Shown one piece after another: positions 1,372-39,378 of a DNA stretch of 64,000 nucleotides; the first letter of the stretch is position 1, and each line of letters opens with the position of its first letter. This DNA comes from Escherichia coli. Lineage in GTDB: Bacteria; Pseudomonadota; Gammaproteobacteria; Enterobacterales; Enterobacteriaceae. The notes under the pieces are model-generated. The model was not told the origin of the DNA, did not search any database, and saw only the letters and a program-made list of their open reading frames with translations. The stretch is from NCBI RefSeq assembly GCF_011045215.1, contig NZ_CP049201.1. The stretch is one strand, 5' to 3'. Position numbers and translations under genes: made by a program.

Positions 1372-2993
1372 CATTGATGGAGATCACTGAATAACAAAAT
1401 GAGTCAAAAGTGATCTCCATCGATGTTATCATATCCTTACCCATAAATCCGAGTGATGTTATTCTGTTGATAAATTAACCATAATTTAGAGGAACTATGG
1501 AAAACTGGGTTATTAAGGAGCTGGAATCTCTGAATGTTGGTGATATCAGGCTCGAAAAGCGAATAAAGCACGTTCTCAGTGTGCTTAGCCGTTCACCAAA
1601 GGAAAGTATTCCCGTATCCTGCCGTACCTGGAGTGAGACAAAAGCTGCTTATCGTTGCTTTTCCAGTGATAAAATTTCAGCCGATAAAATCATGGCTCCC
1701 CATAAGAAAAATATCATCGAAAGGACTAAACAGTTTAAACGGGCTCTGGTTTTACAGGATACGACTGAACTAAATTATTCTGGTCAAAAAAAGAAACAGG
1801 GCGTCGGTCCCAGACGACATGAAAATGAGCGAGATTTGTTTATTCACCCTCAATTGGTTATAAGTGATTCAGGTATTTGCTTAGGGGTTTATGATGATTA
1901 TCAATGGTTCAGAAAAGAACTCAAAACTCAGAAACAAAGTCGTAAAGAAATAACTAATGATTCACTTCACAGGAAACATATCAGTGAGAAAGAAACAGGA
2001 CGGTGGATAGAAGGATATAAAAAAGCAACAGAACTGGCTAGGTCCTGTCCTGATACCCAGATAATTTCTGTTTCAGACCGTGAAGGTGATATTTACGACC
2101 TCTTTGAGAGTGCAGAAAATGAAAGTGGGATAAAGGCTGACTGGCTCGTAAGAATGAAGAGCATTAACCGGGCTATACTGAATTCATCAGGAAAAAGAGA
2201 CTCATTACTCCTGAATGAAAAAATGATGCAGATTTTGCCACAGCAGATAATTGAGTTTACCCTTCCGGAAGGACGAGGACAACCTTCCCGCAAAGTCCAG
2301 CAGGAGCTACGCTTAGCAAGGTTGACGCTACATCCACCCACCGGTCGAAGAGGAAAGTTACGTTGTTCTCCGGTAACGGTAACTGTATTACTTGCAAAGG
2401 AAATAAATGCTCCAGAAAGTGTCCAGCCATTAGTATGGTGGCTAATGAGTAGTGTACCTCCAGAAAAGCTGACGGAACCCGCACAGCTTATTCAATGGTA
2501 TTTATTACGCTGGCAGATTGAAGTTTTCTTTAAGGTATTAAAAAGCGGATGTCAGGTTGAGAAATTACAACTTGAGACATTTGAACGCACAAGGAACTGT
2601 CTGGCCTTATACCTTATAATCTCATGGAGAATACTTTATCTTAGCTCATTGTATAAAATGGTTCCGGAGGAACCCTGTGATTTAATTTTCGAAAAGAAAG
2701 AATATGAGTATCTCTGGATATTGGTAGAGAATACGCCTCCACCTGAAAACATACCGAATATAAGAACGGCGGTTTTAATGCTTGCAAGATTAGGAGGATA
2801 TCTGGCAAGAAAAAATGATTCGCCTCCAGGCCCTAAGACTATATGGTCAGGATTAACACAATTAATGCTGTCAATTAATGCCATAGAAATAGCCCAGAAA
2901 ACTTGTGGGTAAGGGTATGCGATGTTATTCAGCGATCTGTTCAAATGTTATTACCCGATCTCGATGGAAGTTATTGAGTGATCTCCTTTCATG
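1372..2993 (+). mobile_element. IS4-family insertion sequence (IS50/Tn5-like transposase)
   Basis: 24-bp imperfect terminal inverted repeats: CATTGATGGAGATCACTGAATAAC (1372-1395) versus reverse complement of 2970-2993 CATGAAAGGAGATCACTCAATAAC (20/24 identical), bracketing the transposase ORF. Confidence 0.75.
1497..2912 (+). CDS. IS4-family DDE transposase (Tn5/IS50-like)
   Basis: 471 aa, ATG preceded by GAGGA; motifs LQDTTELNY, VSDREGDIYD, YLLRWQIEVFFK, ARLGGY match the Tn5 transposase catalytic regions. Confidence 0.85.
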   Translation: MENWVIKELESLNVGDIRLEKRIKHVLSVLSRSPKESIPVSCRTWSETKAAYRCFSSDKISADKIMAPHKKNIIERTKQFKRALVLQDTTELNYSGQKKKQGVGPRRHENERDLFIHPQLVISDSGICLGVYDDYQWFRKELKTQKQSRKEITNDSLHRKHISEKETGRWIEGYKKATELARSCPDTQIISVSDREGDIYDLFESAENESGIKADWLVRMKSINRAILNSSGKRDSLLLNEKMMQILPQQIIEFTLPEGRGQPSRKVQQELRLARLTLHPPTGRRGKLRCSPVTVTVLLAKEINAPESVQPLVWWLMSSVPPEKLTEPAQLIQWYLLRWQIEVFFKVLKSGCQVEKLQLETFERTRNCLALYLIISWRILYLSSLYKMVPEEPCDLIFEKKEYEYLWILVENTPPPENIPNIRTAVLMLARLGGYLARKNDSPPGPKTIWSGLTQLMLSINAIEIAQKTCG

Positions 2994-3271
2994 AAAATAC
3001 GCACCTCCTTCTCGCTCCTGAAAGATGGACAGTTTTGTATTCTTCGTTCATATTCACAGGTAACCTGCCCCAGAATATCCTCCGGCGGTGTCAGCCACTT
3101 ATTCCTGAGCAATACACTGGTTGATGAATGGCAGCAGGCTATTTCAGCAATAATTTCATGTAATATCTCCGGCCTGAATTTCTTCAGTTCATTGTGATGT
3201 TCCCGGGTAAAACCATGTTCATCGAACAAAAGCTGCCATATCATTGATATACTTCCTTTATTCATCATCAA
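2951..3271 (-). CDS. hypothetical protein (106 aa); 3' end overlaps the IS4 right inverted repeat
   Basis: ORF whose start overlaps the stop of the upstream PerC-like gene (ATGA overlap at 3268-3271). Last codons (RIFMKGDHSIT) are encoded by the IS terminal repeat, so the native C-terminus may be replaced. Confidence 0.3.
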   Translation of the reverse strand: MMMNKGSISMIWQLLFDEHGFTREHHNELKKFRPEILHEIIAEIACCHSSTSVLLRNKWLTPPEDILGQVTCEYERRIQNCPSFRSEKEVRIFMKGDHSITSIEIG

Positions 3272-4348: not shown

Positions 4349-7030
4349 TTAGCCCAACAGGCCTGACAGAAACGTTCCCAACTTCCCTTCTATATCACTG
4401 TCTATAGTACGTAATCTTAGCAATGGCAGGCCACATTTCTTCAGTATACTGTTTTTAAGTTCATCACGTTCAGCCTGAACACTGGTCAGATGATAACCTC
4501 CATCCACTTCAATAACCCCTAACGGAGCCTTCCCGACCTTATAGTAAACAACAAAGTCACAACTGGCACGGTTACGCATGAATAACTGTTCACGGTGTGT
4601 AAAATCCCCCCGCTCCAGCAACACCAACTGATTCAGCGCTATTTGTGAATGAAACATCATACTCCGATAACTATCCTGCGACAGGATATCCCGCAACAGG
4701 CAGGCCACAATCTGTTCTGACTTAAAGTGTGAATCATTTGAATTCAATCTACTATTCAGTCGTTCCAGTGATTTGTCATACTCACTGTACAGCAAATCAA
4801 ATGCTGATATGACCGGGCTCTCGAAAATCTCTCCGTCATCAGCGTAGTATTTGATGTAACGAATCAGCGCCGCAATATGTCCAGCGTGGCGTTCAAATAC
4901 ATCATTACCAGTCACCAGCGTAAATTTATTTCGGGCCCTTGAAACAGCGACATTCACCAGTTCAGGATTATCAACAAACGCGATGTTCCGACTTTGCTGG
5001 CTGCTGCGTTTCTTATCCAGCACAGTGGAAAACACAATTTCATCGCACTCCCGTCCCTGAAATTTATGCACCGTCGATTTCACAAAATCAGCAGGCAGCA
5101 CTTTTTCAGCCAGATTAACCTGTGCATTATATGGGGCAATGTATCCCCTGCTACTTTCTTCATCCCAGTAATGACCTTCCAGAGATTCAAGCTCCCTGAG
5201 ATTTGAAAAATTACGGGTATGGTTTCCTTTTGCCGTGATGACCAGAGATAATGAGGCTTCACCGGAATCAACCGTTAGCGGTATCAGAGCATTATCATAA
5301 AACTGCTTATTACAAAATTGAATGATTTTAGGATGACAGCGATAATGCTCTTTAAGAAGAGTTACTGGCACCATGTTCCTGAACAACATACAAACCGAAT
5401 CAAGTAGACTATATTTCTCACAATTATAGTATTCTGCCGGTGGAGATGGGCTGTTCGGGAGTAATACAGGAACATGTGGAAGTTGCTTACGATCCCCTAC
5501 AACGATTACATTACGGGCACATCCCAGTCCCAGAATGCCCGGAATAATATCCTGCTGTGAGGCTTCATCAATAATCACATAATCAAGAAGGGCACCCTTA
5601 CCGATTGAGTTAATAATCGAATGCGTGCTGCTACCAATAACCGGAAAACGCTTTATAAAATGGTCAAATTCATCCCTGTATGCTTCTGTCGAGAATGAAT
5701 TTCTTGTTGAAATATTTCTTCGCAGATGTTGCTTTAAATAAAGCATAGACCATGATATCAGGCGTTCCAGTAAAATTTTAAAATCAGATTCCTTTAATAC
5801 TTTCTCACATTCATTCAGAGAAAATTGCTTTTCCCGGATAGCTTTTTCATAATAAGAAAGCTGAAGAGAAGTAAATAGTGCCTGCCTTCTCTCCGGAATC
5901 ATCAATGGTTTGACTTTCAGTATCCTGAAGTTTAACAATAAATCAATTCTGTTTCTGAATCCAATCCGCCTGTCAGAAAGGTAATGAATATAAGCCATCA
6001 GGTCGGTTGTTTTTCGTGAGGAAAACCGATATTTGTGAGAAAAAAACTCCTCCGGTCGAAGATTCTGACTCTGCCATTGTTGCAGGTATTTATACTCAAT
6101 ACTCAGTTCATCAATTTCTGCTTTTAACGAAGCAACCTGGTTGATGGCATTCAGGTGTTTTTTCACTTGTTGAAGTACATCATCAATCGCATTTGCAGAC
6201 GGTGAATCAGATAAGGCTTCCTCAGAACGCGAAATCGACGTTGAAAAAAACTGTTGCCTGTTCTCCGTACTCCCCAGTCGTGCCACCACATATCCCAGTT
6301 GCTGTTTGTCCATCTTTTCATAAACATTACTGACAGCTGAGTTATTATTGGACAAAATTGCCACTGTTTTATTCTGAATTAATATATTAGCAACAATATT
6401 GAGTATAGTCTGTGTTTTACCTGTTCCAGGTGGTCCTTCAATAACTGAAATCTGTGAGGAAAATGCCCGTTCGACAGCCAGCAACTGACTTTCATTAAGA
6501 CCAAACGGAAAAATCAAACTCCATGGCGAATCACGTTTTTTACTCTGTCCTGAACAGTATGCATGCAAGGCGGTATCCGGATGAGGAACTATTTTCTTTA
6601 TCTGCCTAAGGATATTCTCATCGATATTTCGGTTATTACCACGAGCATAAAAAATACGTTCATTAGCCACCCTACACAAGTAATTAAACACGGCATGCTC
6701 TGTAAATGCTGAACACTGTTGAAAGTCAAGGCCGGTCGTTTTCATAATGTAGGGTCGTTCACCCTCGCGGTAATAAACAGCAGCATATTTATCACCATAT
6801 ATAATAACCCGTTCAGCCCGGGATGTTACAGCGTCCCCTTTCCTTTCGAGGAAAACATTTCGCAAATTTACAGTTGGCGTTATCTGACATACAGAAAGCG
6901 GACGAGTATATTTTTTCCCGCTGCGAAAATGACAGGTCAGCATAACCTCTCCGTCGTCATTTCCAGCCCACAGCGTCCAGTCGGTAATTTTATGAGTCTT
7001 ATTTTCACCGTCAACACAAATCGTGACCAT
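4349..7030 (-). CDS. SF1B (Upf1/DNA2-like) helicase fused to a C-terminal Vsr/DUF559/DUF2726-like endonuclease domain, with an uncharacterised ~180-aa N-terminal domain
   Basis: 893 aa; Walker A GPPGTGKT, Walker B IIDEASQ, VVGDRKQLP, HYRCHP, SRAR helicase motifs; C-terminal IEVDGGYH...ERDELK...GLPLLRL resembles PD-(D/E)xK Vsr-like nuclease folds. Confidence 0.75.
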   Translation of the reverse strand: MVTICVDGENKTHKITDWTLWAGNDDGEVMLTCHFRSGKKYTRPLSVCQITPTVNLRNVFLERKGDAVTSRAERVIIYGDKYAAVYYREGERPYIMKTTGLDFQQCSAFTEHAVFNYLCRVANERIFYARGNNRNIDENILRQIKKIVPHPDTALHAYCSGQSKKRDSPWSLIFPFGLNESQLLAVERAFSSQISVIEGPPGTGKTQTILNIVANILIQNKTVAILSNNNSAVSNVYEKMDKQQLGYVVARLGSTENRQQFFSTSISRSEEALSDSPSANAIDDVLQQVKKHLNAINQVASLKAEIDELSIEYKYLQQWQSQNLRPEEFFSHKYRFSSRKTTDLMAYIHYLSDRRIGFRNRIDLLLNFRILKVKPLMIPERRQALFTSLQLSYYEKAIREKQFSLNECEKVLKESDFKILLERLISWSMLYLKQHLRRNISTRNSFSTEAYRDEFDHFIKRFPVIGSSTHSIINSIGKGALLDYVIIDEASQQDIIPGILGLGCARNVIVVGDRKQLPHVPVLLPNSPSPPAEYYNCEKYSLLDSVCMLFRNMVPVTLLKEHYRCHPKIIQFCNKQFYDNALIPLTVDSGEASLSLVITAKGNHTRNFSNLRELESLEGHYWDEESSRGYIAPYNAQVNLAEKVLPADFVKSTVHKFQGRECDEIVFSTVLDKKRSSQQSRNIAFVDNPELVNVAVSRARNKFTLVTGNDVFERHAGHIAALIRYIKYYADDGEIFESPVISAFDLLYSEYDKSLERLNSRLNSNDSHFKSEQIVACLLRDILSQDSYRSMMFHSQIALNQLVLLERGDFTHREQLFMRNRASCDFVVYYKVGKAPLGVIEVDGGYHLTSVQAERDELKNSILKKCGLPLLRLRTIDSDIEGKLGTFLSGLLG

Positions 7031-7656: not shown

Positions 7657-8874
7657 TCAGTGCCATTTCAGCCTGTTTTTGATGCTAAACACCTCCGTTT
7701 TCAGTTCACTGACCGTCATGTATTTTCCCCGCTGTTCATCCAGACGGTTCAGGCGCTCAGCCAGCTGCTGTAAGCGGGTCATGCCTTCGTTCCAGCCCGT
7801 CATTGCCTCTTCCGGGAGCGCACGACTCCTTATGCTCTTCTGCCAGTTATCCACCATTTCCTGAACACGGGGATTGCCGGGGAAAAGTCCCCTCAGTTGC
7901 TGCAGCAGCTGCGCACTGCGTTGCAGATTGTATGCCGGGGGTAATTGTGTCAGCCGCGTTATCTGCTGACCGGAAAGGGTTATCCACTCTGACGCATGAT
8001 TTAACAATGAGGATGTTCTGCTGAGCTGTGTCATCTGGTCTGCTGAAAGCACATCCGGTGGTGGTGTCAGCAGCGCCCTGAGTTGCTGCTCTGCCGGTGA
8101 TGACTGTGTCAGAAACTGCCATCCCGGAATGACCACGCTGACAGTCAGCAATGCCGCACAGACACCAGCCAAAAACGGCTTCAGAAACATGGACGGGAAT
8201 TTCTGAAGGGAGGGTGTGGGCTCTGTTTTTGTTTCAGAAACAACATACACCAGACGGGAGTGCGGCAGGGGCTGATGTTCCTGTACGTCCCGAGCATCAG
8301 ACCGGAGTGCCTGAGCCGGAAGGGTTACCGGAGACGACGCTTCGCCCTGTACAGGCTGGTTCTCCAGACGGGTGATATATCCCTTCACCATGGCTTCCGG
8401 CAACGCCACTTTACTGCTCTGTTTAAGTTCGTGCCGGGCCAGTGTGTCACTCAGTGCCTTCAGGAATGTTTCGGTCTGATACAGCAGGGGCAGATTGTCA
8501 CGGTCGTCCGGTGGCATGGCCCGGAGCGTTTTTTGCAGACGGTTGAACAGACCGGTAATAATTTCCAGCCGGGCATGGGTATTCAGCGGCCACATCACTG
8601 ACCAGTGATGCCGGGTCAGCGCCACAATCAGAGCCAGCCCTTCATTCAGGCCACTTAACCCTGTTGTATGCATCCGGGCAATGGTGTACCAGGATGCCGT
8701 CTGCAATTCCACGCCATTGTGTTCATACAGACGCAGGCAGAGCGTTTCCACGTAACGCCAGTCAACATCCGGGCGTGCCGGGTGGGTCAGTTTGCTGATT
8801 TCATCGCGCAGGGCAGCATAATCCGGTAATGACCGGGGGTCACCACCGGTTTTTAGTTTCACTTCAGAAGTCAT
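7657..8874 (-). CDS. ImpA_N-domain (TssA/VasL-like) protein with a central transmembrane helix
   Basis: 405 aa; N-terminal DWRYVETLCLRLYEHNGVELQTASWYTIARMHTTGLSGLNEGLALIVALTRHHWSVMWP follows the ImpA_N pattern; hydrophobic segment FLKPFLAGVCAALLTVSVVIPGW. Confidence 0.55.
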   Translation of the reverse strand: MTSEVKLKTGGDPRSLPDYAALRDEISKLTHPARPDVDWRYVETLCLRLYEHNGVELQTASWYTIARMHTTGLSGLNEGLALIVALTRHHWSVMWPLNTHARLEIITGLFNRLQKTLRAMPPDDRDNLPLLYQTETFLKALSDTLARHELKQSSKVALPEAMVKGYITRLENQPVQGEASSPVTLPAQALRSDARDVQEHQPLPHSRLVYVVSETKTEPTPSLQKFPSMFLKPFLAGVCAALLTVSVVIPGWQFLTQSSPAEQQLRALLTPPPDVLSADQMTQLSRTSSLLNHASEWITLSGQQITRLTQLPPAYNLQRSAQLLQQLRGLFPGNPRVQEMVDNWQKSIRSRALPEEAMTGWNEGMTRLQQLAERLNRLDEQRGKYMTVSELKTEVFSIKNRLKWH

Positions 8875-8928
8875 CGGCAGATTCAGTGTTGCTGTATTAA
8901 ATCATGATTAACAGTTACGGAAAGAATG

Positions 8929-9234
8929 TCAGTGTGATACCGGGACCCGGGAAAGGTATTCCACTGCACGGATGATTGCCGGTGTCACATCCCACCGCCG
9001 TTTCAGAACCGGTAACAGCTCATTAAGGTTTCTGATATAACGCTCAGTGAACAGCCGTTGTCCGTCCCGGGTTAAATGAAAACCTGACTGATTACAGGTA
9101 ATGGTGATATGACAGGTATCGTTGCCAATATATACGGCTTCCTGAGGTCTGAATCTGACATTCCAGTGCCAGGAGTACGGAGAGTGGTTCAGATAAAAAA
9201 GACGCATCTGAATATCGTTAAATAACGGGTTCAT
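8929..9234 (-). CDS. hypothetical protein (101 aa), same strand as and tightly spaced between its two neighbours
   Basis: ORF with 54-65 bp gaps to flanking genes; no recognisable motif. Confidence 0.4.
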   Translation of the reverse strand: MNPLFNDIQMRLFYLNHSPYSWHWNVRFRPQEAVYIGNDTCHITITCNQSGFHLTRDGQRLFTERYIRNLNELLPVLKRRWDVTPAIIRAVEYLSRVPVSH

Positions 9235-9299
9235 GGCGAATTAAATAAACCTGATAATAACAGTATGGTGAAAGCCCGGAATAAAGAAATAATCCGGTA

Positions 9300-11126
<1,827 letters not shown>

Positions 11127-11222
11127 ATTCCGTCTGAAGGGAATATGTCGAATACTTCATTAAAATACAAACATTCAGTAAACTTCACTACGCAAGTGCA
11201 ATTATCCAGTCCCGTCTAATGA

Positions 11223-11798
11223 TTAAAAACGATAACCAACTCCAACAGTAAATCCATTGACCGAATGTTTTCCATATATATCTGCTTTAGTTCCCTCATA
11301 CCCAACATTTACAGACATATTGCCCCACGGATTAATAATAACACCAGCTGCATAAGCAAAATCAGTGGATTTTTTTGATACAGACTCACTTAAATATCCA
11401 TCAGATTCATCAGCACCCACACTGTTTCTCCACTCATAATCTCCCTTCGCTTTAGTATGAGATATCCCCACCAAACCATAAAAACTGATATAGTCATTCA
11501 GACGATAAGCTGGGCCTGCGAGAAATGAATAATATTTAATATCAGCCTGCTGTCTGTAAAAATCGTCAGCTTCATCGCGATGACTGTCCGCCCAGTCACC
11601 TTTCATATACGAAAAACTCCCGACAACACTGACCGGAGAATCCCACTCATATCGATATTGCAGATTCACTCCTTTAATATTCTTAAAGTCCTGTACCTTA
11701 CTCTGAGCATAACCAGCCGATAGCGTATGATTATCAGCCAGTGTTGAACCACTCATAACAGATAATATCATTACTGAAATTATAACGAGTTTTTTCAT
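11223..11798 (-). CDS. Ail/Lom/PagC/OmpX-family outer-membrane beta-barrel protein
   Basis: 191 aa, signal peptide MKKLVIISVMILSVMSGSTLA, alternating aromatic beta-strand pattern, C-terminal GVGYRF. Confidence 0.8.
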   Translation of the reverse strand: MKKLVIISVMILSVMSGSTLADNHTLSAGYAQSKVQDFKNIKGVNLQYRYEWDSPVSVVGSFSYMKGDWADSHRDEADDFYRQQADIKYYSFLAGPAYRLNDYISFYGLVGISHTKAKGDYEWRNSVGADESDGYLSESVSKKSTDFAYAAGVIINPWGNMSVNVGYEGTKADIYGKHSVNGFTVGVGYRF

Positions 11799-12380
11799 TT
11801 AACCCTCCTTCATTAATAAATGATTTCTGAAAATCAAAAAGGACCACACATCACAAAACATTATTTGAAATCATCATCAAAAAACTATAAATATATCACC
11901 TGACGATTTGAACACACTGACAAAAAACCAGGCATGGTAATAAACCGAACTCCCCACAAACTTCTGTTGCCTCAGATACCACAGCCACTTTCCTCAGGTA
12001 TAAATGTTGTTCCATAACGAACCAGCCCTGTATCGTTAAATCCTGCCTCAGTGACATAATGTAACTCACCAGACTGAGTCTTCGCCTACATCATCATTTC
12101 AATACGCTTAATACATTATTCATAATATCCAGAATTTCCTATAGAATATTTACTTTGCTATATCAGTCGGTCCATAATCAGGCAAATCATTAATGCTTCC
12201 TGACTGAATATTTAAAATGCGTCACATGTTATCAAAAATTTAAAGAATACCCTATTCTTCTTCATTGGCCGGATTTAGCTCAATCTTGTCAACAAAACTA
12301 ATATAAAGCCGTTCATAAAGAGAAGGATGTAGCTTCGTTATTTATCTTTTACATGTAACAGTACCAGGGGATATTCCGCA

Positions 12381-13352: not shown

Positions 13353-13571
13353 CTATTTACGATAGTATCTTCGCATTTGTAGATAGAGTTGTAACCAAAT
13401 CCCAGCACCTCCCCATAAGCCAACTACTGCGCCAATTATTCCGTATTTTACATACACCTCAGAAGGTATTGGTTCCCGAGCTATAAACCAGATACTAACC
13501 ACTATTCCAATAGAGCAAGTAGCTATAGATATAAGTAACAACTTAATAAGAAGTAGTAGATGTTTTTTCAT
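13353..13571 (-). CDS. cdiI: CdiI immunity protein (72 aa, two TM helices)
   Basis: Start overlaps the cdiA stop (ATGA at 13568-13571); hydrophobic two-helix protein. Confidence 0.7.
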   Translation of the reverse strand: MKKHLLLLIKLLLISIATCSIGIVVSIWFIAREPIPSEVYVKYGIIGAVVGLWGGAGIWLQLYLQMRRYYRK

Positions 13572-16500
13572 TTTTTGTCTCCATCAACTTCTTTTTGCGT
13601 TGCGCTGCTTGCACCTTCTGATACGAATGAACCAACAAATCCACCAAATGTTCCTGGTATAGAACTCATTTGGCCGCCTTGATACATACCGTATCCGATA
13701 GACTTTTCCGAATATTGCAGTGAATATTTACTGGCGTCCATTCCCAGTTGATTTTTGATGTATTGAGCTTCTAACTTATTAGTAATTGAAGCGCCAATGT
13801 TATAGCCAAGGCCTGTACCAGCCATGCTACCCACTACTGATGCGGTACTGTCCTGGCCTTCAATCTGGCTGCTCATGTAAGCGCTACCGGCACCCAACAA
13901 CTGGTTAGCGTAATATCCTTTCCCGGCTGTACCTACACCAGTCAAGCCTGACATCATGAAACTGAGATAATCGAACTTATCACCGATATTTCCCGTACCA
14001 ATTTGTACCGCACCATTAGCCCCATAGCTCAGCCCGGCACTAACAAATTTTTCCGTCAGCGTGGCTGATGACGTTAACAACGAACCCGCTCCGGCAACCG
14101 TACCCCAGTAATTTTCCGGTTCCCCGAAGAAAGCCAGAGCCCTGTCACCCTTCGACGTATTACTGTTCAGATAATTCAGGTCGTAGCTGTTGCCTTCAGC
14201 CACGTAATCCTTCACCTCCTGATTAGTCAGTGAACCATACAGCCAGCTAGGTCGGCCCGCCGCGCTGAGCCCGCCCTCAATATTCCATTTATCTTCCCCG
14301 GACAGAGCCGTCAGAGGATCTGCGGCCACATCAATGTGTAATTTCTGTCGGTTCTCTGCGCTTAATACAGCATATTTATTCTGAATATCGCCGCAGTCTC
14401 CACCCGCTTTACGACAGGCCGTCATTTCTCTGTCAAAAGCATGCGCCTCGTCGTAGCTGAGGTAGTTATTCTCAACTGTTGTCTTACCTGACTGTGCGCC
14501 GGCTACCGCTGAAGCCCCCGAGTCGCCCACCAGACCACCGGCCAGGCCGGCAGCAACCGTTGCCAGCGTGGAGACCGTCTGTTTCTCTGTCTCACTCAGT
14601 TCACTCACCGGTTTATCGTACATCTGTGTGGCTATCATTCCCACCACCTCGCCGGTGGCTGCACCTGCAGCACCGGCAAGAGCATTATTTCCCTGTGCCA
14701 GAGACAGTGCGGCATTCACCACGGCATGGGCGGCCACATTTGCAGCCTTATTCACCTCACCTGTAACCGGGTCTGTGGTCATGGTTTTCACCACTTCAGC
14801 CAGATACGGTGCTGCACCACCTGCCAGGGCTGCACTCAGATTACCGCCGGCCAGCCCCTGTACTGCTGCCGTTGCGGCCTGTATCGCCTGCTGGTATTTG
14901 CCTCCCGTTCCAAAACCGGAGGCCGCCATACCGTTATTGTAAGCCCGCTGTGCCACATCCTGTTCCGTGAACGGTTTTCCTGCTGCCTCAAGCTCTGCAC
15001 GGGCCTGATTCAGTGCTGCCGGGTCCCGTTTCGCTTTCTCACCGGCTATCTGTCCTTCCGTTCTGGCAATATCTGCCACCTGGTTACCAATCTCACCAAT
15101 GAGTTGCGCCTGCTGCAACCGCTGCTGCTCTTTTTCCCTGTCAAAGATGGGGGACAGCGTCTGGTTTGCATGCGCAACGTCACGGTTCAGGTCTGCCACA
15201 TCCTGTTTCTGGCTCTGTGTATCCCGGATAGTGATATTCCCGGCAGACACAGCCGACTGCGTGGTACTGTCCGCATGGCCTTCATGATTTGCACCGACCA
15301 GCAGATTGTTTGCCATGTTCCCCAGGAAATTTCCGGCAACACTGCCACCGGTACTGAGCCCTGCACTCTGATGTTCCGTTTTAAAGTCAGCCCGGTTTTC
15401 AGTGTCACTGAAGCCCAGTGTGCCGGTATCCAGCCTGTTTTTATCTGCCGTTGCCGTGGACGCAATCACCGCACCGTTCAGTTGTGTATGCTGTCCGGTC
15501 GTGACATCAAACCCGCCCCTGCCGGCAAAAATCCCTGTCTGCTCCTGCACACTGTCGTGGTTACTGTGCATTTTATCCCGGCTGAGGCTCACACTCGCCG
15601 AACCGCTCATGGACCCGAAAGTGAAGCTGCCTCCGGCGCTGGCATTCTGCTGTTTACTGTCATAATGGTCACTGTCCTGCTCACTGGTCAGTGTCAGATG
15701 GCGACCGGCATCCACTTTCACGGTTTCTCCACTGGCCTGCGCCCCGGTAAGTGTGGTGTCACGCCCACTGATAATGGTCAGCTGTTTTCCCGCATCCACC
15801 GTGGTTTCTGTATGGGTGGTACCGTTGCCTTTTTCACTGCCCTTACCCTGGTTTGCGCTGGCTGACAGACTGAAACCAGGCCCTCCGGGCCCCACACCGA
15901 TACCGACACCCACGCTGCCACCACTGGATGTGTTCTTTCCTTCCAGCTTTGACGTGTTTTCTGCTGATACCAGATTCACGTCACGGTTTGCCTGCAGCAG
16001 AACGTTGTTCCCGGCCTTTATCTGACCGCCCTGTATCGTCAGGTCACCATCCACGCCCTTCACGCCGGAGCCGGTGGCCTGAATACTGAGGTTATTACCT
16101 GCGGTCAGTGTACTGCCCTTCGCCACCGTCTGCTCTGACTGCTGTTCTGATTTCGAAGACTGGCTGCCGTAAGAGAGGCTGATACCCACGGTATTGTTAT
16201 TCTCTTTCTGGTTGCCCTGTGCTTCTGCCAGTCGTCCGGCCTGCACGGCCTGAGCCCCCGAGAGCGCGGCCTTCACCCCCTGCAGGGCTTCAAGCCGGCT
16301 GTTTCCGGCAGATTTCGCCGCCTGTACGGTCTCCACCGTCGTGTTCAGGGCGCTGCCCGCTGTGCCGGACAGGGCAAGCGTCAGACCGGAGGTTTTCTGC
16401 TCCACCGTATGTGTCTGCACATGCCGGTCAGTGGCGGCGGTAATGCTGACCTCCTTACCACTGAGTGCCATGTCCCTGCCGGCAATCAGGTCAGAGCCGT

Positions 16501-19500
16501 TGACGGTCAACCGGTTACCTGCCTGAAGGGAAACATCACCGTGAACACTCCCCACCGTGCTGCCTTTCTGCGTGGTGTCTGTTGCGGTGTCCGTGACCTT
16601 CAGACTCTGGCTGCCCACGCTGAATCCCACACCTCCGGAGCTCATCAGTCCGGATTTTTTCTCCTGTTTCAGGTGTGTTTCACGGTTGCTTTCTGTCAGC
16701 GTTCCGATACTCAGGTTATTTCCGGCAGCCAGGGAGACACGGTTATCCCCGGCCACACTGCTGCCCGTGACGTTCAGATTATGTCCGGCACCGATACTGA
16801 CCGTATCCCCGTTCAGTTCACTGCCCGTCATGGTCCGGCGGTCAGTGACATCATGCGTGGTAGTGGTGGTTTTCGATAACATCCCGCTGTTGCCGGTCAC
16901 TTTATGGTATTCATCCAGCGAGCGGGTATTCTGTGCACCGGTCAGCGTCACGTCATGACCCGCCATCAGGGCCAGGCCTTTCTGAGCTGACAGCAATGCC
17001 GCCTGTGACGTCATATCCCGTCCGGCGGTCAGCGTGACATCACCGTTACCGGCAAGCGTGCTGCCCGTACTCTGTGTGACGCCCTGCGACAGACGATTAT
17101 TTTTATCCCAGATAATATTGTCCTGCGCGGATGTGGTCACTGTGGAGAATGTCATATCCCTGCCGGCACTGAGTTGCGTCAGACTGTCCTTACCCTGGTT
17201 CACCACCGTTGCTGCCGTCAGGTTTATGTCCCGTCCGGCCTGCAGCACCAGTCTGCCCTGGTCATTCTGCACATATACGCCAGCCACACTGTCGATGCTG
17301 GTACGTTCAAAATGGTTCTGTCCGGCGTCACTCTGTGCCGTACGGGTGGTGGTGGTCAGACTGATATCCCGTCCGGCCATCGCCAGCAGGCTGTCCGTGG
17401 CCTGCAGCAGCCCGCCGGTACTGTTAATATCCGTCCGGGCCGTCAGGCTGACATTTGCTCCCTGAATGGTGCCGGCCTGGTTGTGAATGTTTTCTGCACT
17501 GAGCTGCACGGCCTGCTTCCCGGCCAGTTTACCGCTGTTAAACAGGTCACCATCCAGCTTCATCACCATGTCCCTGCCGGCAATCAGCGCACCGGCACTG
17601 TTCACATCACCGGGTTTTACACGGGCATACACCTGAGGTACCTGAACCGTCTGCGTGCTGCCGTCCGGCAGTGTCACCGTGGTGTTAACCAGCCAGACAA
17701 TATCACCGGTCAGTAACGCCATCTGCTCAGCAGTCAGCGCCACACCTGGTGTCAGGTTGTATTGCTTACCAAATGCAATACCCGCATCCATTAACGCCTT
17801 AAACTGCTCTTCATCATTACTGTATCCGTCCAGGTACCGTTGCCCGGTCAGAGCGACAACCTGCTCACGAATCAGACGCTGTTCGTAAAAACCATCCCCC
17901 AGGCGTTTGAGCATGTTATCCCCGTTCTGAGAAAACGCCTTCTGCATGTAATCACTGCCCAGCCACGTCTTCTGGTTCGTAAAACGCGGGTCCGTTTCAA
18001 CCAGATATGGCACATTCACTGCCGGATTTGTTTTAAACAGGCTGCTGTCCGGCAGACGGGTATCCGGCCCGGCAACATGGATACTGCCCTGAGGTGCGCT
18101 GACTTCAAACTGCTGCCCCGGCAACAGAATGACCGGTTCACCGGCTGACACCACCGGGCGAAGCGGTATCCGGTCAGTAACGGCTACTGTCGCATCCACA
18201 TTTCCGGTCAGTCCTGTCTGTACATCCGTTCCCTGTGGCTTCAGGGGAGAAAGCGTGACCTGGCTGCCCTGAACCTGTCCGTGGCTGGTGAGCTCTCCCG
18301 GCTTCAGCGTGATGGTCTGAATGACGGGGGGCGGCTCGTAAGGGGAAATTCTTTCCCCCTGCCTGTCATTTTTATTTTTTCTTTTTATCCGGTAATAATA
18401 TGTGGATGTCCCTTTATCAGTAACATGGCGCTCTCCGCTGACACTGACGTTTTCCACATCACCGGCCTGCATATCCAGCAGACCACCTGCAACCACCTGG
18501 CTCTTGTCATTAAGCAGTTTGTCTGCCACAACCGTCATGCCGGCACCGGACAGTATTTTCCCCGGGTCGGAGTCTTTTACCCGGGTTTCCTCCACGGTAC
18601 GGGTGTATTCATATTTTGTGAACCGGTCGTTGTTATGTCCGGTATCATCCGGCGTGTTCAGGTTCAGCAGTCCATCAGAGGAGTTGTTATCAATGAACAC
18701 CCCCTCATCTTTTGCATTCCAGCGGACATCTGACCCGCGATGCTGATACTCAGTCACCTTTTCCGTGGAAACCACCACGCGCTCCGTGGTGAAATGGTCA
18801 TTGACGTTATTGATTTGTCCGGCACTCAGTACCAGATATCCGGCGGCTTCAATAGTGGCACTGTGATTATTCAGTACACCGGTTTTACCTGTGGCGGTGC
18901 CATTCGCATCCAGCGTGCCACCGATATGCATATCACCTGCACTGTAAATCAGGCTGTGCGTCCGGTTATTCAGGGTCTGTACCCCCAAGTCCACACGCTC
19001 ACGCCCGGCCAGCGTCGCCGCCACGCCATTTTCTTCCAGATTATTAAATGTGGCAGCACTGACACCAACAGCATCGCCGTAGATTCGCCCGGTACCGGAA
19101 TTCGTCAGGGTGTTCGCCTGAAGATGCGTATATTTCCCGTCAATCAGCCCACGGTTCAGCAGTGTGTCCGTCACGTTAAGCCAGGTCTGCCCGGCACTGA
19201 TTTCACCTTTCCCGGTGTTTTCAAGGCGGATGCTGTTCAGGTCAAGTCGGCTGCCTGCCAGCAGGCTGCCGGTATTAGAGACATCGCCATTAACGGAAAG
19301 CGTAAGGTTTCCGTTCGCAATAGTCTGACCACTGTTACTGAACGCTGTGTTACTTTTCAGCGTTATATCGCCCGGGGAAAGCAGTTTCCCGTCACCACCG
19401 AGCTGACCGGCATCCACAGAGACTGACTGCCCGGCCTTAACCACACCGTCACGGTTCGAAAACGCCAGCTGACGGCCACTGACAGACAATGTCGCGCCGG

Positions 19501-22500
19501 AAGAGAGCACGCCATCATTATTACTGAGCGTCCTGTCTGCCATAACCGTAAGCGCCCTGTCTGCCAGAATACTGCCCTCCTGGTTATCAAGGTCCTGCGT
19601 CGTGATGTGTATTGTCTGCGCTTCCAGCCCCTGGCCGGTATTCTGCGTGTGGCGATTGATAAACTGCAGGGCGTTCAGCGTAATGGCAGAACCACTGCGA
19701 ATCAGACCAGAGACGTTGTCCACAACGCCCCGTACACTGTCGAACAGAATGTCGCCCACAGACTGTATCTGTCCGTGGCTGTTCTGCAGGCCTCCCGTAT
19801 GCAGACGGAGTTCACCTTCACTGACCAGCCGGCCACCCTCACGGTTATCCAGCGAGGTGGTGCTCAGGTCAGCTGTCGTTTTCGCCCCCACGGTCCCGCC
19901 CCGGTTATCCATTGCTCCGGTACTGACAGTCAGTTCCTGCAGGCTGTTCAGCGTACCCCCTCTGTTATCCAGCGTCCGGCCTGCGCTATTAATGCTGATG
20001 CCTTTCCCCTGAATAAGACCGGACTGATTGTTCAGCGCCAGACTGTTCCGGCCGGGCAGACCGGTCGCCACAATCTGACCATTCGCCACCACCTGACCGG
20101 ATGTATTGTTAACCACGCCTGCAGTCAGGGACAGCGCATCTCCCGACAAAAGCACACCGGCAGTGCTGTCCAGTGTGCCGGCATTCAGCGTCATCGGGCC
20201 CTGACTGATAACCCCGCCCCGGTCACCACTGTTACGGTTGCTCAGTGTGTCAGCACGGAGATTCAGTGTGGCACCGCTCTGTATCAGACCACCTGCATCA
20301 TTGCTGATATCCGTCGAGGAAAGGGTCAGTGACTGCTGTGCCACCAGTCTGCCGCCCTGATTATCAGAGCGGGTGACATCCAGCCTGCTGTTACCGTTGC
20401 TGACCACCGTCCCCTGCTGATTTTCCAGCACATTCAGGTGCGCATTCAGGTCCCCGCCGGCGGCAAGCGTCCCTTCCTGATTACTGACATCGCCACCACT
20501 CAGCAACATATCCGTCCCGGCCTTCAGTGCGCCTTTCTGGTTCATCAGCGTACCTGACGATATCTGTAATGACGCCTGACTCCCCAGCACGCCCTGACGG
20601 TTATCGAGCGTTCCGGCGTTCAGGGTCATATCCTTCTGACCCGCCATAAATCCCTGCTGGTTATTCAGCATACCGGCCCGTACTGTCAGGGTACCGGCGC
20701 TGCTGATACCACCCCGTGTTTTCGTGTTCCGGTTACTGAGAACCCCGTCCTGTACATCCAGCGTCATGTCACTGCCGGACTGAATCAGACCATCATCAGA
20801 GACCAGTTCGCTGCCTGACACAGACAGCGTTTTCTGTGAAAGCAGTCTGCCGGACGTATTATCCAGCGCACCATCCAGCGTCACGGACAGCCCGTCAGAC
20901 ACCACCGTACCCTGGTGGTTATTCAGACTCCCTGCCGAAATATCCAGCCTGCCGGCGGACTCCATTCGTCCCTCAGTATTGCTGACAGCCTGCTGTGTTT
21001 TTATCCTGCCCGTTCCGGCAGCAGCTGAAATCAGTCCGTTGTCGTTATTCAGTGCCTGTGTATTAATCAGGATGTCACGGCTGGCAATCAGACTTCCCTG
21101 CTGGTTATCCACGGCGCCGGTTGTCCTCACCTGCAGACTACCTGACTGCGCCGCCTGCACTTTCCCCCTGCGATTATCAAGGCTCAGTGCATCCAGGCGC
21201 ACCGCGCCATTTGCCGCAAGCAGCCCTTCCCGGTTATCCACGCTTCCCGGCAGACTCAGCGAAAAATCCCCTGTTCCCGTCTGAATCAGACTGCCTTTAC
21301 GATTTGACAGGCTCTGTGCCGATATCTGCAGTGTGTCGGCATTTACCGTGCCACCATTATTGCTGAACTGCCCGGCAGTCCGGGCGGAAAGCGTACCGGC
21401 ACTCAGTTGTGCATTCTGTGTGGACAGATTTCCGCTGCCTGCATCCAGCTCAGTATGTTGTCCCTGTATCCGGCTGTTGCTTAAATCCAGCCCCTGCCCC
21501 TTCAGTTGCATGTCCCCACCGGACAGAACCTGTCCGTGTGCCGCCAGTTCGCCGGTGGTACTGACAGTCAGGTTGCCCGCTGCCGCCAGACGTCCGTCAT
21601 CTTTCACCCCGGCGGCCAGCAGACTCCGCTCACCGCCGGTCAGACGCGCTGTCTGAATCCGGGTGTTGCGGCGTGATGCCACAGAGCCTGTATGGGTGAA
21701 TGCACCATCACTCTGTATCTGCGTATCCTGCCCCGCATAAACAGAACCACTGTTATGCAGCTCCCGGGTTGTCGCCAGATGCACATCCGTTTTCGCACTG
21801 ATACTGCCACTGTTTTCAATACGTCCGTCAGCCGTCAGGGTAACCGCCCCTGCCTGCGCACCAATATGACCGGCGTTACGAACCCCCACCCCCGTTTCCG
21901 TACCGACAAGGCGAATTTTTCCGGCATACATTCCACCAAGGCTGGACACATCCAGCGCCACCTGTGGCTGCGAAGAGGCATCAGCGGCTTTTTTCTCAGT
22001 CTGCCCGTGTGCAATATCCACATTGTTACGTCCGGTGGTCACTTTCAGGTCCTGCGCCCAGATACCCGCATTAATCTTCACAGACCGGGCAATGATATCG
22101 GTATAATCCGTGCGCGAGGCATCCATCCCTTTGCCCGTAATCTGAATCTCACCACGTTCAACACTGAATCCGGTCAGACTGCCGTTTTTCATCTGAGGCT
22201 GCCCCGTGGTCAGCGTGGCCCGGTTCGCATTAATAAAACCGCACCCGTCGCAACTGATGCCGGCCGGGTTCGCAATCACCACCTGCGCCTTTTTCCCGGC
22301 AACCTCAACAAAACCGTTCAACTGGCTGGGATTGCGACTGTTCACTTCATTAAGAATGATTCGGGCCTCTCCCTTCGCCAGCCACGGGTTACCGGCAACC
22401 ATGCCGCCCAGTTGGGTCTGCACATTTTTATGCGAGTTATTCAGAATGACACCCTGATGACTGACATCAAACTGACTGTAAGTATTGTGCGATACCCCAC

Positions 22501-38415: not shown

Positions 38416-39378
38416 AGTATCATACCGACATTCTCAACATCTTCAGACATCCATGCAGACTGAGTGTTGATTTCAGTTTTTCACGGCCAGCATGGATCTT
38501 TACTGGTCAAAAAACAGACAGATTTACTCTGGAATTATTTTTCCAGGCCTCCCTGAAAAGACCATCCGGAGCACCCCGTTCGTCAGCTTCCATGTTGTCT
38601 TTTACCCCCGGAAAGTGATCGCATTTTCCAGCCAGAATGACAGCCATACTGATTATGACGTCTCTCCGGCCCCTTCACATATAACATTCATGTCAGTCAT
38701 TTCTACTGTCTCACTCACCGAAATTCTCCATGCCGGATGAAGCAATTGTTCTGAACTGAGCAGAAGCATAACAGCACACACAAGGAAACGACTGTGCCAT
38801 AGATCCCGGAATCAGGATCTTAATGTCAGGAAAACAGTGACGACCGGGGATAACTAACAACAACCTGAGTACAGAAGAAAGCTTTCCCGCGCACGCCACC
38901 ATCTTATGTAAGAGGATATGATGCCCCCACCTCAGAAGAACCGTCTCCGGGAGAACTTCACTGCATCAAAAATCCTTTTGCTGAGTTCTCATTCCCCATC
39001 ATGGCAGCTACAGACATGCCCTGACAGAGCGTATGCGCATTGAGAGAAATAACCATAAATGATGAGAAGACACTCTATATGACGACAGCATGTTGAGGTA
39101 TAAAAAATATTCATCTAAATATTTTAAGAATATTTTTTATTGCAAATTACATGAAATAACATGATGTCAATATAATTTTGTCAAATGCGTGAGATTAATC
39201 ACATTGTAATTTTATGTATTTTTATGTAAATAAGAGAAAATGATCCATGAGCGTTATTGCATTTTTTCTGATGTATGGATAAAAGGGGGATTCAGGCAAA
39301 ATTTACTGACAGAGGAGATGATAAGAGGGGGTTAAAGAGTTCTATAGAGTTGGTTGTGCATTTATACCCAGGGAGTTC

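What the first reader, a model, noticed from the sequence alone, without database searches (positions are those of the whole stretch)
11121..11150. Perfect 11-bp inverted repeat overlapping the start codon of the NERD-helicase gene
CGACATATTCC-(8 nt)-GGAATATGTCG spans 11121-11150 and includes the ATG (11126-11124, minus strand). In the mRNA the start codon would sit in the 3' arm of a stable hairpin with no obvious Shine-Dalgarno upstream. This suggests translational sequestration, an operator site for a repressor, or that the true start is a downstream Met (M5 or M14).
Basis: seen in the sequence. Interest (0 to 1): 0.5.

Follow-up and report, generated by a model that had tools for sequence, protein, structure and literature searches.

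The report
Conserved hairpin upstream of helicase gene
The perfect palindrome is real, but it lies in the spacer between the pagC outer-membrane gene and a NERD-UvrD helicase gene, 33 bases before the helicase's true start codon. It is therefore an ordinary intergenic stem-loop of untested function, not a switch hiding the start codon.

Summary
The inverted repeat exists and is slightly longer than reported: 12-bp perfect arms at 11120-11131 and 11140-11151 with an 8-nt loop (RNA dG -17.4 kcal/mol). About 0.04 such repeats are expected per 64 kb.

The ATG inside it (11126-11124) is not the start codon. Eighteen homologues at 29-60% identity all begin 'MA.LIP', aligned to Met14. Three unrelated upstream contexts share sequence only from 2 nt before that ATG. 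In a diverged orthologue the M1 ATG is out of frame. The true start is 11087-11085, and NCBI's M28 start is 14 codons short.

The palindrome lies at -33 to -64, in the pagC (Z4321, OI-122)-NERD spacer. It is single-copy and present in 505 of 5426 E. coli genomes.

In a diverged orthologue (L041) both 11-nt arms are identical, the 12th pair changes T-A to C-G, and the loop differs at 6 of 8 positions, although the flanks are only 67-81% identical. About 500 further genomes carry a different 12-bp hairpin at the same offset. Other lineages have lost the hairpin.

Best guess (0.35): a stem-loop acting on the transcript, either protecting mRNA or attenuating read-through. Function is untested. Rivals are an operator or a neutral palindrome.

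The parts
11120..11131 (-). Arm of the perfect inverted repeat. It is the 3' arm (GGAATATGTCGA) on the sense (minus) strand and contains the spurious M1 ATG at 11126-11124.
   Evidence: The 11 inner bases are identical in the diverged orthologue L041.
11132..11139 (-). 8-nt spacer or loop (sense strand CTTCAGAC). Its sequence is free: 2 of 8 match L041, while its reverse complement matches the UTME-7 loop at 6 of 8 and the L041 loop at 5 of 8.
11140..11151 (-). Arm of the perfect inverted repeat; the 5' arm (TCGACATATTCC) on the sense strand.
11085..11087 (-). True start codon of the NERD-UvrD helicase gene (Met14 of the maximal ORF; protein begins MAKLIN...).
9300..11087 (-). NERD + UvrD-type helicase/nuclease gene, 595 aa (PADLOC candidate family C3a187 'NERD+UvrD').
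11043..11045 (-). Met28 ATG, used as the start by NCBI PGAP (581-aa products). It is preceded by GAGGAG, but that motif lies inside conserved coding sequence, and residues 14-27 are conserved across the family.
11104..11119 (-). U-rich tract following the stem on the sense strand (CGGUUAUGAUUUUACU). An equivalent tract follows the hairpin in L041, UTME-7 and the ESY002-type loci. It includes the -10-like TATGAT (11115-11110).
11133..11138 (-). -35-like hexamer TTCAGA in the loop, paired by the scan with TATGAT (9 of 12 matches). It is not conserved in L041 or the ESY002-type loci.
11223..11798 (-). pagC-like Ail/Lom outer-membrane protein gene (Z4321 of O-island 122), same strand. Its stop codon lies 71 nt upstream of the hairpin.
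11088..11222 (-). 135-nt pagC-NERD spacer. Homology to other NERD loci stops at 11088/11089. Homology to other pagC genes stops 2 nt after the stop codon. Homology to the pagC-less UTME-7 locus starts about 5 nt upstream of the hairpin (about 11156).

Best explanation
The palindrome is an intergenic stem-loop in the leader of the NERD-UvrD helicase gene. On the sense strand it lies 71 nt after the pagC stop codon and 33 nt before the true helicase start (Met14).

Proposed mechanism (inferred, not shown): pagC, the helicase gene and the surrounding T6SS genes all point the same way and are read as one or overlapping transcripts. The 12-bp stem followed by an AU/U-rich tract forms in that RNA. 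It then acts on the transcript in one or more of three ways:
- as a barrier to 3'-5' exonucleases, as in malE-malF;
- as a protective 5' hairpin after RNase E cleavage, as in papBA;
- as a weak attenuator of read-through.

Any of these would uncouple the level of helicase-nuclease mRNA from that of the upstream genes. The stem-loop does not control translation by hiding the start codon.

Shown: the repeat itself, its position relative to the real start, its conservation pattern, and a second hairpin form at the same offset. Inferred: that it acts as RNA, and what it does.
For: 1. Position. The true start is M14, so the hairpin is intergenic, at -33 to -64. The flanking genes are co-oriented, and in L041 the whole tssG-tssJ-tssE-pagC-NERD-101aa-tssA run is intact and co-oriented.

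2. Constraint. Between the window and L041 the spacer is 48/72 columns identical 5' of the hairpin and 28-29/36 identical 3' of it, with indels. Yet both 11-nt arms are 22/22 identical, the 12th pair changes T-A to C-G, the loop differs at 6 of 8 positions, and the loop length is kept. L041's PagC was also recovered by a palindrome-independent protein search (P0271), so this is not only ascertainment.

3. A second form. About 500 E. coli genomes have an unrelated-looking upstream region with a different 12-bp hairpin (CGACATCCACGA-7 nt-TCGTGGGTGTCG, -22 kcal/mol, 0 of 150 shuffles). It ends 37-39 nt before the same ATG, is also followed by a U-rich tract, and stays with the helicase gene in three different upstream contexts.

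4. Strand asymmetry. The U-rich tail is on the sense strand in every form.

5. Precedent. Intergenic protective stem-loops reshape operon stoichiometry in E. coli (PMC5927463). Stem-loops flanking hcp4 do so within a Yersinia T6SS operon (PMC12503267).
Against: - No transcript data could be obtained. The EDL933 Cappable-seq table is truncated before this locus.
- It is not a canonical intrinsic terminator: 5 of 12 pairs are G-C, the loop is 8 nt, and the U-run starts only 4-10 nt after the stem. The scan did not call it.
- The hairpin is dispensable. It is decayed at the neutral rate in UTME-7 (arms 18/22 against flank 29/36), weakened in O104:H4 and cut in O111:H21. It is absent from the PAPS-reductase context and from a 60% homologue in an intact T6SS cluster.
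- Transitions in the stems show no preference for keeping G.U pairs on the sense RNA: 6 on the sense strand against 4 on the antisense strand.
- The arm sequence is conserved, not just the pairing. That fits a protein-binding site equally well.
- Homology between the two hairpin forms is only marginal (p = 0.009-0.14; local p = 0.2).
Confidence: 0.35

Rival explanations
1. Neutral palindrome. The perfect symmetry is a mutational product of template switching or intrastrand repair at a quasi-palindrome, which copies one arm from the other and can flip the spacer. The repeat has no function and simply sits in the spacer next to the gene.
For: - The window's loop looks like the reverse complement of the loops in UTME-7 (6 of 8) and L041 (5 of 8), against 3 of 8 and 2 of 8 in the direct comparison. 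That is the signature of a spacer inversion between the arms.
- The arms decay at the flank rate in UTME-7 and in O104/O111-type loci.
- Within E. coli the W-type region is about 99% identical throughout, so its uniformity across 503 of 505 genomes carries no information.
- The repeat is single-copy, with no partner sites.
Against: - 22 of 22 arm positions are identical between the window and L041 while the flanks are 67-81% identical. Under neutrality the expected probability is about 0.0001 to 0.01.
- A second, different hairpin sits at the same offset in the other half of the E. coli loci, each with 0 of 150 shuffles as stable.
Confidence: 0.27
2. DNA operator. A dimeric DNA-binding protein recognises the two CGACATATTCC half-sites, spaced 8 bp apart, and represses or activates the helicase promoter.
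For: - Perfect dyad symmetry. Arm sequence, not only pairing, is conserved in L041, while the spacer sequence is free and its length fixed.
- The site lies at -33 to -64 from the start codon and overlaps a sigma-70-like match in the window: TTCAGA in the loop, a 17-nt spacer, then TATGAT.
Against: - That promoter match is a 9-of-12 hit of a kind expected by chance several times in the region. It is not present in L041 or the ESY002-type loci.
- No regulator gene is adjacent. The 101-aa neighbour has no family hit.
- There are no further half-sites in the window or in L041.
- Half-site centres 20 bp apart are unusual for a simple dimer (general knowledge).
- The ESY002-type hairpin shares only the outer 5 bp.
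- Other contexts of the gene lack any palindrome.
Confidence: 0.15
3. Recombination-prone structure or cargo boundary. The hairpin marks, or promotes, the junction at which different cargo genes (pagC, a GIY-YIG nuclease, a 159-aa ORF) are swapped in front of the helicase gene, between tssE and tssA of the T6SS cluster.
For: Independent homology breakpoints fall 0-18 nt upstream of the hairpin:
- UTME-7 against L041, about 5 nt 5' of the stem;
- O111:H21, inside the 5' arm;
- ESY002 against O104/24A16, about 18 nt upstream.

The slot holds different genes in L006, L041, L047, L060 and L064. The spacer appears to have been inverted.
Against: - There are only three or four breakpoints.
- The same pattern is expected if everything from the hairpin to the gene is simply the retained functional unit.
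- There is no flanking direct repeat, no second copy of the arms at the other side of pagC, and no recombinase tied to the site.
- 32-bp palindromes are not known fragile sites (general knowledge).
Confidence: 0.08
4. Canonical Rho-independent terminator of pagC.
For: - It is the only hairpin between the pagC stop codon and the next gene.
- Related pagC genes end with hairpins 10-45 nt after the stop. One of these is a canonical hairpin plus T7 in the pagC-only locus L047.
- A U-rich tract follows on the sense strand.
Against: - The defining features are not met: the stem is AT-rich, the loop is 8 nt, and no U-tract lies within 2 nt of the stem.
- The hairpin belongs to the helicase-side segment. 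It is present, though decayed, in UTME-7, which has no pagC. Homology with that locus starts just 5' of the stem.
Confidence: 0.08
5. One reading: the hairpin sequesters the start codon of the helicase mRNA and so controls translation.
For: An ATG (11126-11124) lies in the 3' arm, in frame with the gene in this window.
Against: - No homologue extends upstream of M14.
- That ATG is out of frame in L041.
- The segment is absent from half of the E. coli loci that keep an intact gene.
- There is no Shine-Dalgarno sequence in front of it.
- The real start and its Shine-Dalgarno region lie outside the stem.
Confidence: 0.02

Closest known systems
Intercistronic protective stem-loops of polycistronic mRNAs (malE-malF, papBA, puf; hcp4-flanking loops in the Yersinia pseudotuberculosis T6SS4 operon)
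   Same: It is a stable hairpin in the spacer between co-oriented genes, next to AU-rich sequence, and conserved between lineages while the surrounding spacer drifts. It lies inside a T6SS gene cluster, like the hcp4 loops (PMC5927463; PMC12503267).
   Different: No decay, cleavage or 3'-end data exist for this locus. The arms are conserved in sequence rather than showing many compensatory pairs. The element has been lost in several lineages.
Rho-independent (intrinsic) terminators
   Same: A hairpin followed by U-rich RNA on the sense strand, downstream of a probably well-expressed outer-membrane protein gene. Related pagC genes carry true terminators at the corresponding place.
   Different: The stem is only 42% G+C, the loop is 8 nt, and the U-run is displaced 4-10 nt from the stem. 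The scan does not call it.
Palindromic operators in front of defence or toxin genes (for example sites bound by WYL/HTH regulators such as BrxR or CapW; from general knowledge)
   Same: Perfect dyad symmetry just upstream of a defence-like nuclease-helicase gene, with a fixed spacer length and free spacer sequence.
   Different: There is no adjacent regulator gene, no conserved promoter overlap and no second site. The alternative hairpin form shares only 5 outer base pairs.
Start-codon or Shine-Dalgarno-sequestering hairpins (translational control elements)
   Same: A stable hairpin near the 5' end of a coding region, with an ATG in the 3' arm.
   Different: That ATG is not the start codon. 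The real ATG and its purine-rich motif lie 33 nt downstream, outside the stem.
Quasi-palindrome template-switch mutation and spacer inversion (from general knowledge)
   Same: The arms are perfectly complementary, and the spacer matches the reverse complement of the spacer in sister lineages.
   Different: This explains how the repeat became perfect, not why its arm sequence stayed identical in a lineage whose flanks diverged by 20-30%.

Membership tests
Translational-control hairpin that sequesters the start codon or Shine-Dalgarno sequence | The functional start codon or its Shine-Dalgarno sequence lies within the stem. | tested here: not met
   The real start is M14 at 11087-11085. The stem ends at 11120, 33 nt upstream. 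The predicted fold leaves the M14 region outside the hairpin.
Intrinsic (Rho-independent) terminator | G+C-rich stem with a short loop, followed immediately (0-2 nt) by a run of U. | tested here: not met
   5 of 12 pairs are G-C, the loop is 8 nt, and the tail is CGGUUAUGAUUUU. The terminator scan did not report it in the window or in L041.
Intrinsic (Rho-independent) terminator | RNA 3' ends map at the U-tract. | not testable with these tools
   No Term-seq data are available. The only transcription-start table found is truncated.
Intercistronic protective stem-loop (malEF / papBA type) | A stable hairpin in the spacer between co-transcribed, co-oriented genes. | tested here: inconclusive
   The hairpin is stable (-17.4 to -22 kcal/mol) and the genes are co-oriented. 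Co-transcription was not shown.
Intercistronic protective stem-loop (malEF / papBA type) | The structure is conserved across lineages. | tested here: inconclusive
   It is perfect in the window and L041, with one compensatory pair. A different hairpin lies at the same offset in about 500 genomes. It is lost in UTME-7 and O111:H21 and absent elsewhere.
Intercistronic protective stem-loop (malEF / papBA type) | Differential mRNA decay or processing at the structure. | not testable with these tools
   This needs rifampicin decay and RNase mutant experiments.
Palindromic operator of a transcription factor | A dyad-symmetric site overlapping a functional promoter. | tested here: inconclusive
   Symmetry is met. 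The promoter-like overlap exists only in the window, not in L041 or ESY002.
Palindromic operator of a transcription factor | A cognate regulator is encoded nearby, or further sites exist (a regulon). | tested here: not met
   No DNA-binding protein family was found in the neighbouring genes. No extra half-sites beyond chance were found in the window or L041.
Dispersed repeat (REP/BIME, MITE, IS end) | Many copies per genome. | tested here: not met
   There is a median of one place per genome, in 505 genomes, always at the same junction. None were found in phage, plasmid or viral collections.
Any described RNA family (Rfam 15) | A match to a covariance model at or above the gathering score. | tested here: not met
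   Only chance-level hits were found (21 bits against a gathering score of 63).

The most novel reading that the evidence does not exclude
The hairpin is a functional DNA or RNA landmark of a cargo slot inside a T6SS gene cluster, between tssE and tssA. In this slot a NERD-UvrD nuclease-helicase is kept while the neighbouring cargo (pagC, a GIY-YIG nuclease, a 159-aa ORF) is exchanged right at the 5' edge of the stem. Arm-mediated inversion of the 8-bp spacer changes the -35-like sequence in the loop, so it would act as a heritable expression switch for the helicase gene.
Probability: 0.07. Interest if true: 0.5.

Novelty: new member of a known kind. Interest (0 to 1): 0.25.

Why it matters
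For this finding the result is mainly corrective. An apparent start-codon-sequestering hairpin is an artefact of taking the longest ORF.

Two practical points follow.
1. The start of this widespread E. coli NERD-UvrD gene is annotated inconsistently: 581 aa from M28 in RefSeq, and 595 or 608 aa elsewhere. Family comparison fixes it at M14.
2. The helicase-nuclease gene, a candidate anti-phage gene sitting inside a type VI secretion cluster and O-island 122, carries a leader hairpin in about 1000 of 1031 E. coli genomes, in two sequence forms. This is a cheap, testable handle on how such potentially toxic genes are kept at low or uncoupled expression.

If the hairpin proves functionless, it is still a clean natural example of a perfect short palindrome with an inverted spacer.

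Tried and rejected
- Rfam scan of 10700-12300 at E <= 10 gave only chance hits.
- Phage and plasmid collections hold only distant lom genes, matching from the stop codon inward, or nothing. The viral contig scan for the arms gave 0 hits.
- The genome-contig scan with the PagC protein returned only homologues at 58% identity or less. These are too distant to compare the 3' flank.
- The metagenome scan for the arms returned three hits with other loop lengths (L033, L040, L046). They lie in unrelated, partly coding, contexts and were taken as chance.
- Extra half-sites were sought in the window (9 found against 5 expected, none nearby) and in L041 (only the two arms).
- Published transcription-start data: the EDL933 Cappable-seq table (PMC10469882, Table S4) is stored truncated at about 0.6 Mb, far short of 3.945 Mb. 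Literature searches for Z4320/Z4321, sRNAs in OI-122, and NERD-UvrD in T6SS gave nothing on this spacer.
- Homology between the two hairpin-bearing upstream forms was tested. The local alignment is not significant (p = 0.2). Alignments anchored at the ATG are marginal (p = 0.009-0.14, controls negative). I therefore do not count their differences as covariation.
- Strand of action was tested from wobble-compatible transitions: 6 keep pairing on the sense strand and 4 on the antisense strand, so there is no signal.
- The idea that the ESY002-type hairpin is the end of an insertion sequence was rejected. It is single-copy and is retained without the IS remnant in O104:H4-type loci.

Full report
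**What is in the sequence**

The window is E. coli chromosome from an O-island-122-like island built on a decayed type VI secretion (T6SS) cluster. At 11120-11151 there is a perfect inverted repeat, TCGACATATTCC / GGAATATGTCGA, with 12-bp arms and an 8-nt spacer. Perfect repeats of this size with 3-20 nt loops occur 0.04 times per 64 kb in first-order Markov simulations of the window, and 0.30 times for 11-bp arms. As RNA the segment folds at -17.4 kcal/mol on the sense (minus) strand, with z = -4.4 and none of 200 shuffles as stable.

**The ATG in the arm is not the start codon**

The longest ORF (9300-11126, 608 aa) begins at the ATG inside the arm. Four independent lines put the real start at Met14 (11087-11085).

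1. In a search of 1.84 billion representative proteins, no homologue aligns upstream of residue 13-14. Many align residue 14, 15 or 16 of the query to their own residue 1, 2 or 3. An alignment of 18 of them (29-60% identity) shows every one starting 'MA.LIP' exactly at M14.
2. The PADLOC profile 'NERD+UvrD' (C3a187, E = 3e-141) starts at residue 14.
3. E. coli carries this gene behind at least three unrelated upstream sequences. These share sequence with the window only from 'TTATGGCGAAACTG', that is, from 2 nt before the M14 ATG.
4. In the diverged orthologous locus L041, two indels put the arm ATG out of frame. The ORF opens at M14, 7 nt after an AGGAG. A 60% homologue likewise starts MAKL behind GGAG.

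NCBI's pipeline starts most copies at Met28 (581 aa). Residues 14-27 are conserved across the family, so that start is probably 14 codons short. The palindrome therefore lies at -33 to -64 from the real start, and the start-codon sequestration idea falls.

**Where the palindrome occurs**

It sits in the 135-nt spacer between a pagC-like Ail/Lom gene (Z4321 of OI-122) and the helicase gene, both on the minus strand.

- A 48-nt probe finds it in 505 of 5426 complete E. coli genomes, at a median of one place per genome and always at this junction. It is identical in 503 of them.
- One variant carries C>T in an arm.
- It is absent from phage, plasmid and viral collections and matches no Rfam family.
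- The helicase gene itself is in 1031 genomes, so about half lack this palindrome.
- More distant pagC genes match only up to their stop codon.

**Comparative evidence for constraint**

A metagenome scan for the arms recovered L041, a diverged orthologue with an intact gene order of tssG-tssJ-tssE-pagC-NERD-101aa-tssA. Its PagC was also found by a protein search that did not use the palindrome (P0271), which limits ascertainment bias.

Between the window and L041 the comparison is as follows:

| Segment | Identity |
|---|---|
| Spacer 5' of the hairpin | 48/72 columns |
| Spacer 3' of the hairpin | 28-29/36 columns, with indels |
| Two 11-nt arms | 22/22 |
| 12th pair | T-A changed to C-G |
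| 8-nt loop | 2/8, length unchanged |

At the flank rates the chance of 22 unchanged positions is about 0.0001 to 0.01.

A third relative, UTME-7 (L064), has no pagC. Its homology starts about 5 nt 5' of the stem. Its arms have drifted (18/22) at the same rate as its flank (29/36), and the hairpin no longer folds. The element is therefore conserved in two lineages and decayed in one, and it belongs to the helicase-side segment rather than to the pagC cassette. A pagC-only locus (L047) has a different 3' flank with a canonical hairpin plus T7 terminator.

**A second hairpin form at the same place**

About 500 genomes that lack the palindrome (ESY002 type) carry a different 12-bp hairpin, CGACATCCACGA-7 nt-TCGTGGGTGTCG.

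- It folds at -22 kcal/mol, with 0 of 150 shuffles as stable. It ends 37-39 nt before the same ATG, against 32-36 nt for the window and L041, and a U-rich run follows it too.
- It travels with the helicase gene behind an IS remnant, behind a GIY-YIG nuclease gene (O104:H4, 24A16), and behind a VgrG remnant (O111:H21, where the breakpoint cuts the 5' arm).
- It is weakened in O104:H4 (-13 kcal/mol) and lost in O111:H21.
- The two forms share the outer CGACA/TGTCG pairs and some flank. Sequence homology is only marginal, so I do not treat their differences as covariation.
- No hairpin precedes the gene in the PAPS-reductase context or in the 60% homologue.

**Mechanism**

What is established is a stable, partly conserved, non-essential stem-loop in the leader or intercistronic region of a co-oriented gene run.

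*Transcript-level element (best guess, confidence 0.35).* I think it most likely acts on the transcript: as a protective or processing structure of the malE-malF or papBA kind, or as a weak attenuator that uncouples helicase mRNA from upstream transcription. Such structures are common in E. coli operons (PMC5927463) and have been shown within a Yersinia T6SS operon (PMC12503267). The sense-strand U-rich tail in all forms fits this. It is not a canonical terminator.

*Operator (0.15).* The symmetry and the conservation of arm sequence fit an operator. However, the promoter-like match it overlaps in the window (TTCAGA-17 nt-TATGAT) is missing in L041 and ESY002. No regulator or second site was found.

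*Neutral origin (0.27).* This remains credible. The window's loop resembles the reverse complement of the UTME-7 and L041 loops (6/8 and 5/8, against 3/8 and 2/8 direct), as expected from template switching between the arms. That process also makes arms perfect. Several lineages have let the hairpin decay.

*Strand test.* Transitions in the stems give no strand signal: 6 keep pairing on the sense strand and 4 on the antisense strand.

No transcript data could be obtained.

**Verdict**

The finding is a real palindrome, wrongly placed on a start codon by the longest-ORF rule. It is an intergenic hairpin of a known general kind with untested function. Interest is modest. The useful by-products are the corrected start and the observation that this defence-like helicase gene keeps a leader hairpin in two sequence forms inside a T6SS cargo slot.

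Noticed in passing
window 11043-11087 (minus strand); RefSeq proteins such as WP_021530691.1: NCBI PGAP starts this NERD-UvrD gene at Met28 (581 aa) in most E. coli genomes and at Met14 in pseudogene calls. Eighteen diverged homologues start 'MA.LIP' at Met14, so the 581-aa RefSeq products probably lack 14 N-terminal residues.
   Followed up: yes
window about 7657-12343; L006 1-6357; L041 401-6898; L047; L060; L064: The NERD-UvrD helicase-nuclease gene sits inside a T6SS cluster between tssE and a tssA/vasL-like gene. The gene in front of it varies: a 159-aa ORF with no family hit (L006), pagC (window, L041), a GIY-YIG nuclease (O104:H4, 24A16), or nothing (UTME-7). L047 has pagC in the slot without the helicase. 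This looks like a cargo or defence slot inside a secretion-system operon.
   Followed up: partly
L003 5128-5158; L060 about 3022-3053; L062: About 500 E. coli genomes lack the palindrome but carry another 12-bp hairpin (CGACATCCACGA-7 nt-TCGTGGGTGTCG, -22 kcal/mol) ending 37-39 nt before the same start codon, also followed by a T-run. It shares only the outer 5 bp with the window's palindrome.
   Followed up: yes
window 11132-11139 against L041 3265-3272 and L064 2517-2524: The window's 8-nt spacer (CTTCAGAC) matches the reverse complement of the spacers in UTME-7 (GTCTGCAC, 6/8) and L041 (GCCTGTAC, 5/8) better than it matches them directly (3/8, 2/8). This suggests the spacer was flipped between the perfect arms. 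The flipped version creates the better -35-like hexamer TTCAGA.
   Followed up: partly
window 4349-7030 (minus strand); L041 7457-10138: An 893-aa AAA/helicase-like protein hits the Mokosh defence proteins MkoA (E = 5e-44) and MkoC (E = 4e-39) in PADLOC. It stays next to the T6SS/NERD region in the diverged locus L041.
   Followed up: no
window 11180-11190 (minus strand): An 11-nt block, TAGTGAAGTTT, in the pagC 3' flank is identical between the window and L041, although the surrounding spacer is about 67% identical. In the predicted fold GUGAAGU can pair with AUUUUAC downstream of the hairpin, enclosing it.
   Followed up: no
window 1377-1420 and 39100-39140: There are two other perfect inverted repeats with 12-bp arms (ATGGAGATCACT with a 20-nt loop; ATAAAAAATATT/C with a 15-17 nt loop). 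They are unrelated in sequence to the one studied.
   Followed up: no
window 13568-22804 (minus strand): A 3078-aa ORF with a filamentous-haemagglutinin N-terminal (TPS) domain and many 20-aa haemagglutinin repeats. In strain PF9285 the corresponding region holds only ShlB/POTRA pseudogene fragments.
   Followed up: no
window 11145-11219 (plus strand): A 24-codon ORF on the opposite strand starts at the ATG in the other arm of the palindrome and ends next to the pagC stop codon. No evidence of coding was sought.
   Followed up: no
L047 1349-1401: In the pagC-only variant (tssE-pagC-tssA) the gene is followed 44 nt after its stop codon by a canonical terminator-like hairpin (AACAACTGGCA...TGTCAGTTGTT) plus a T7 run. 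The window's pagC has no such element.
   Followed up: partly
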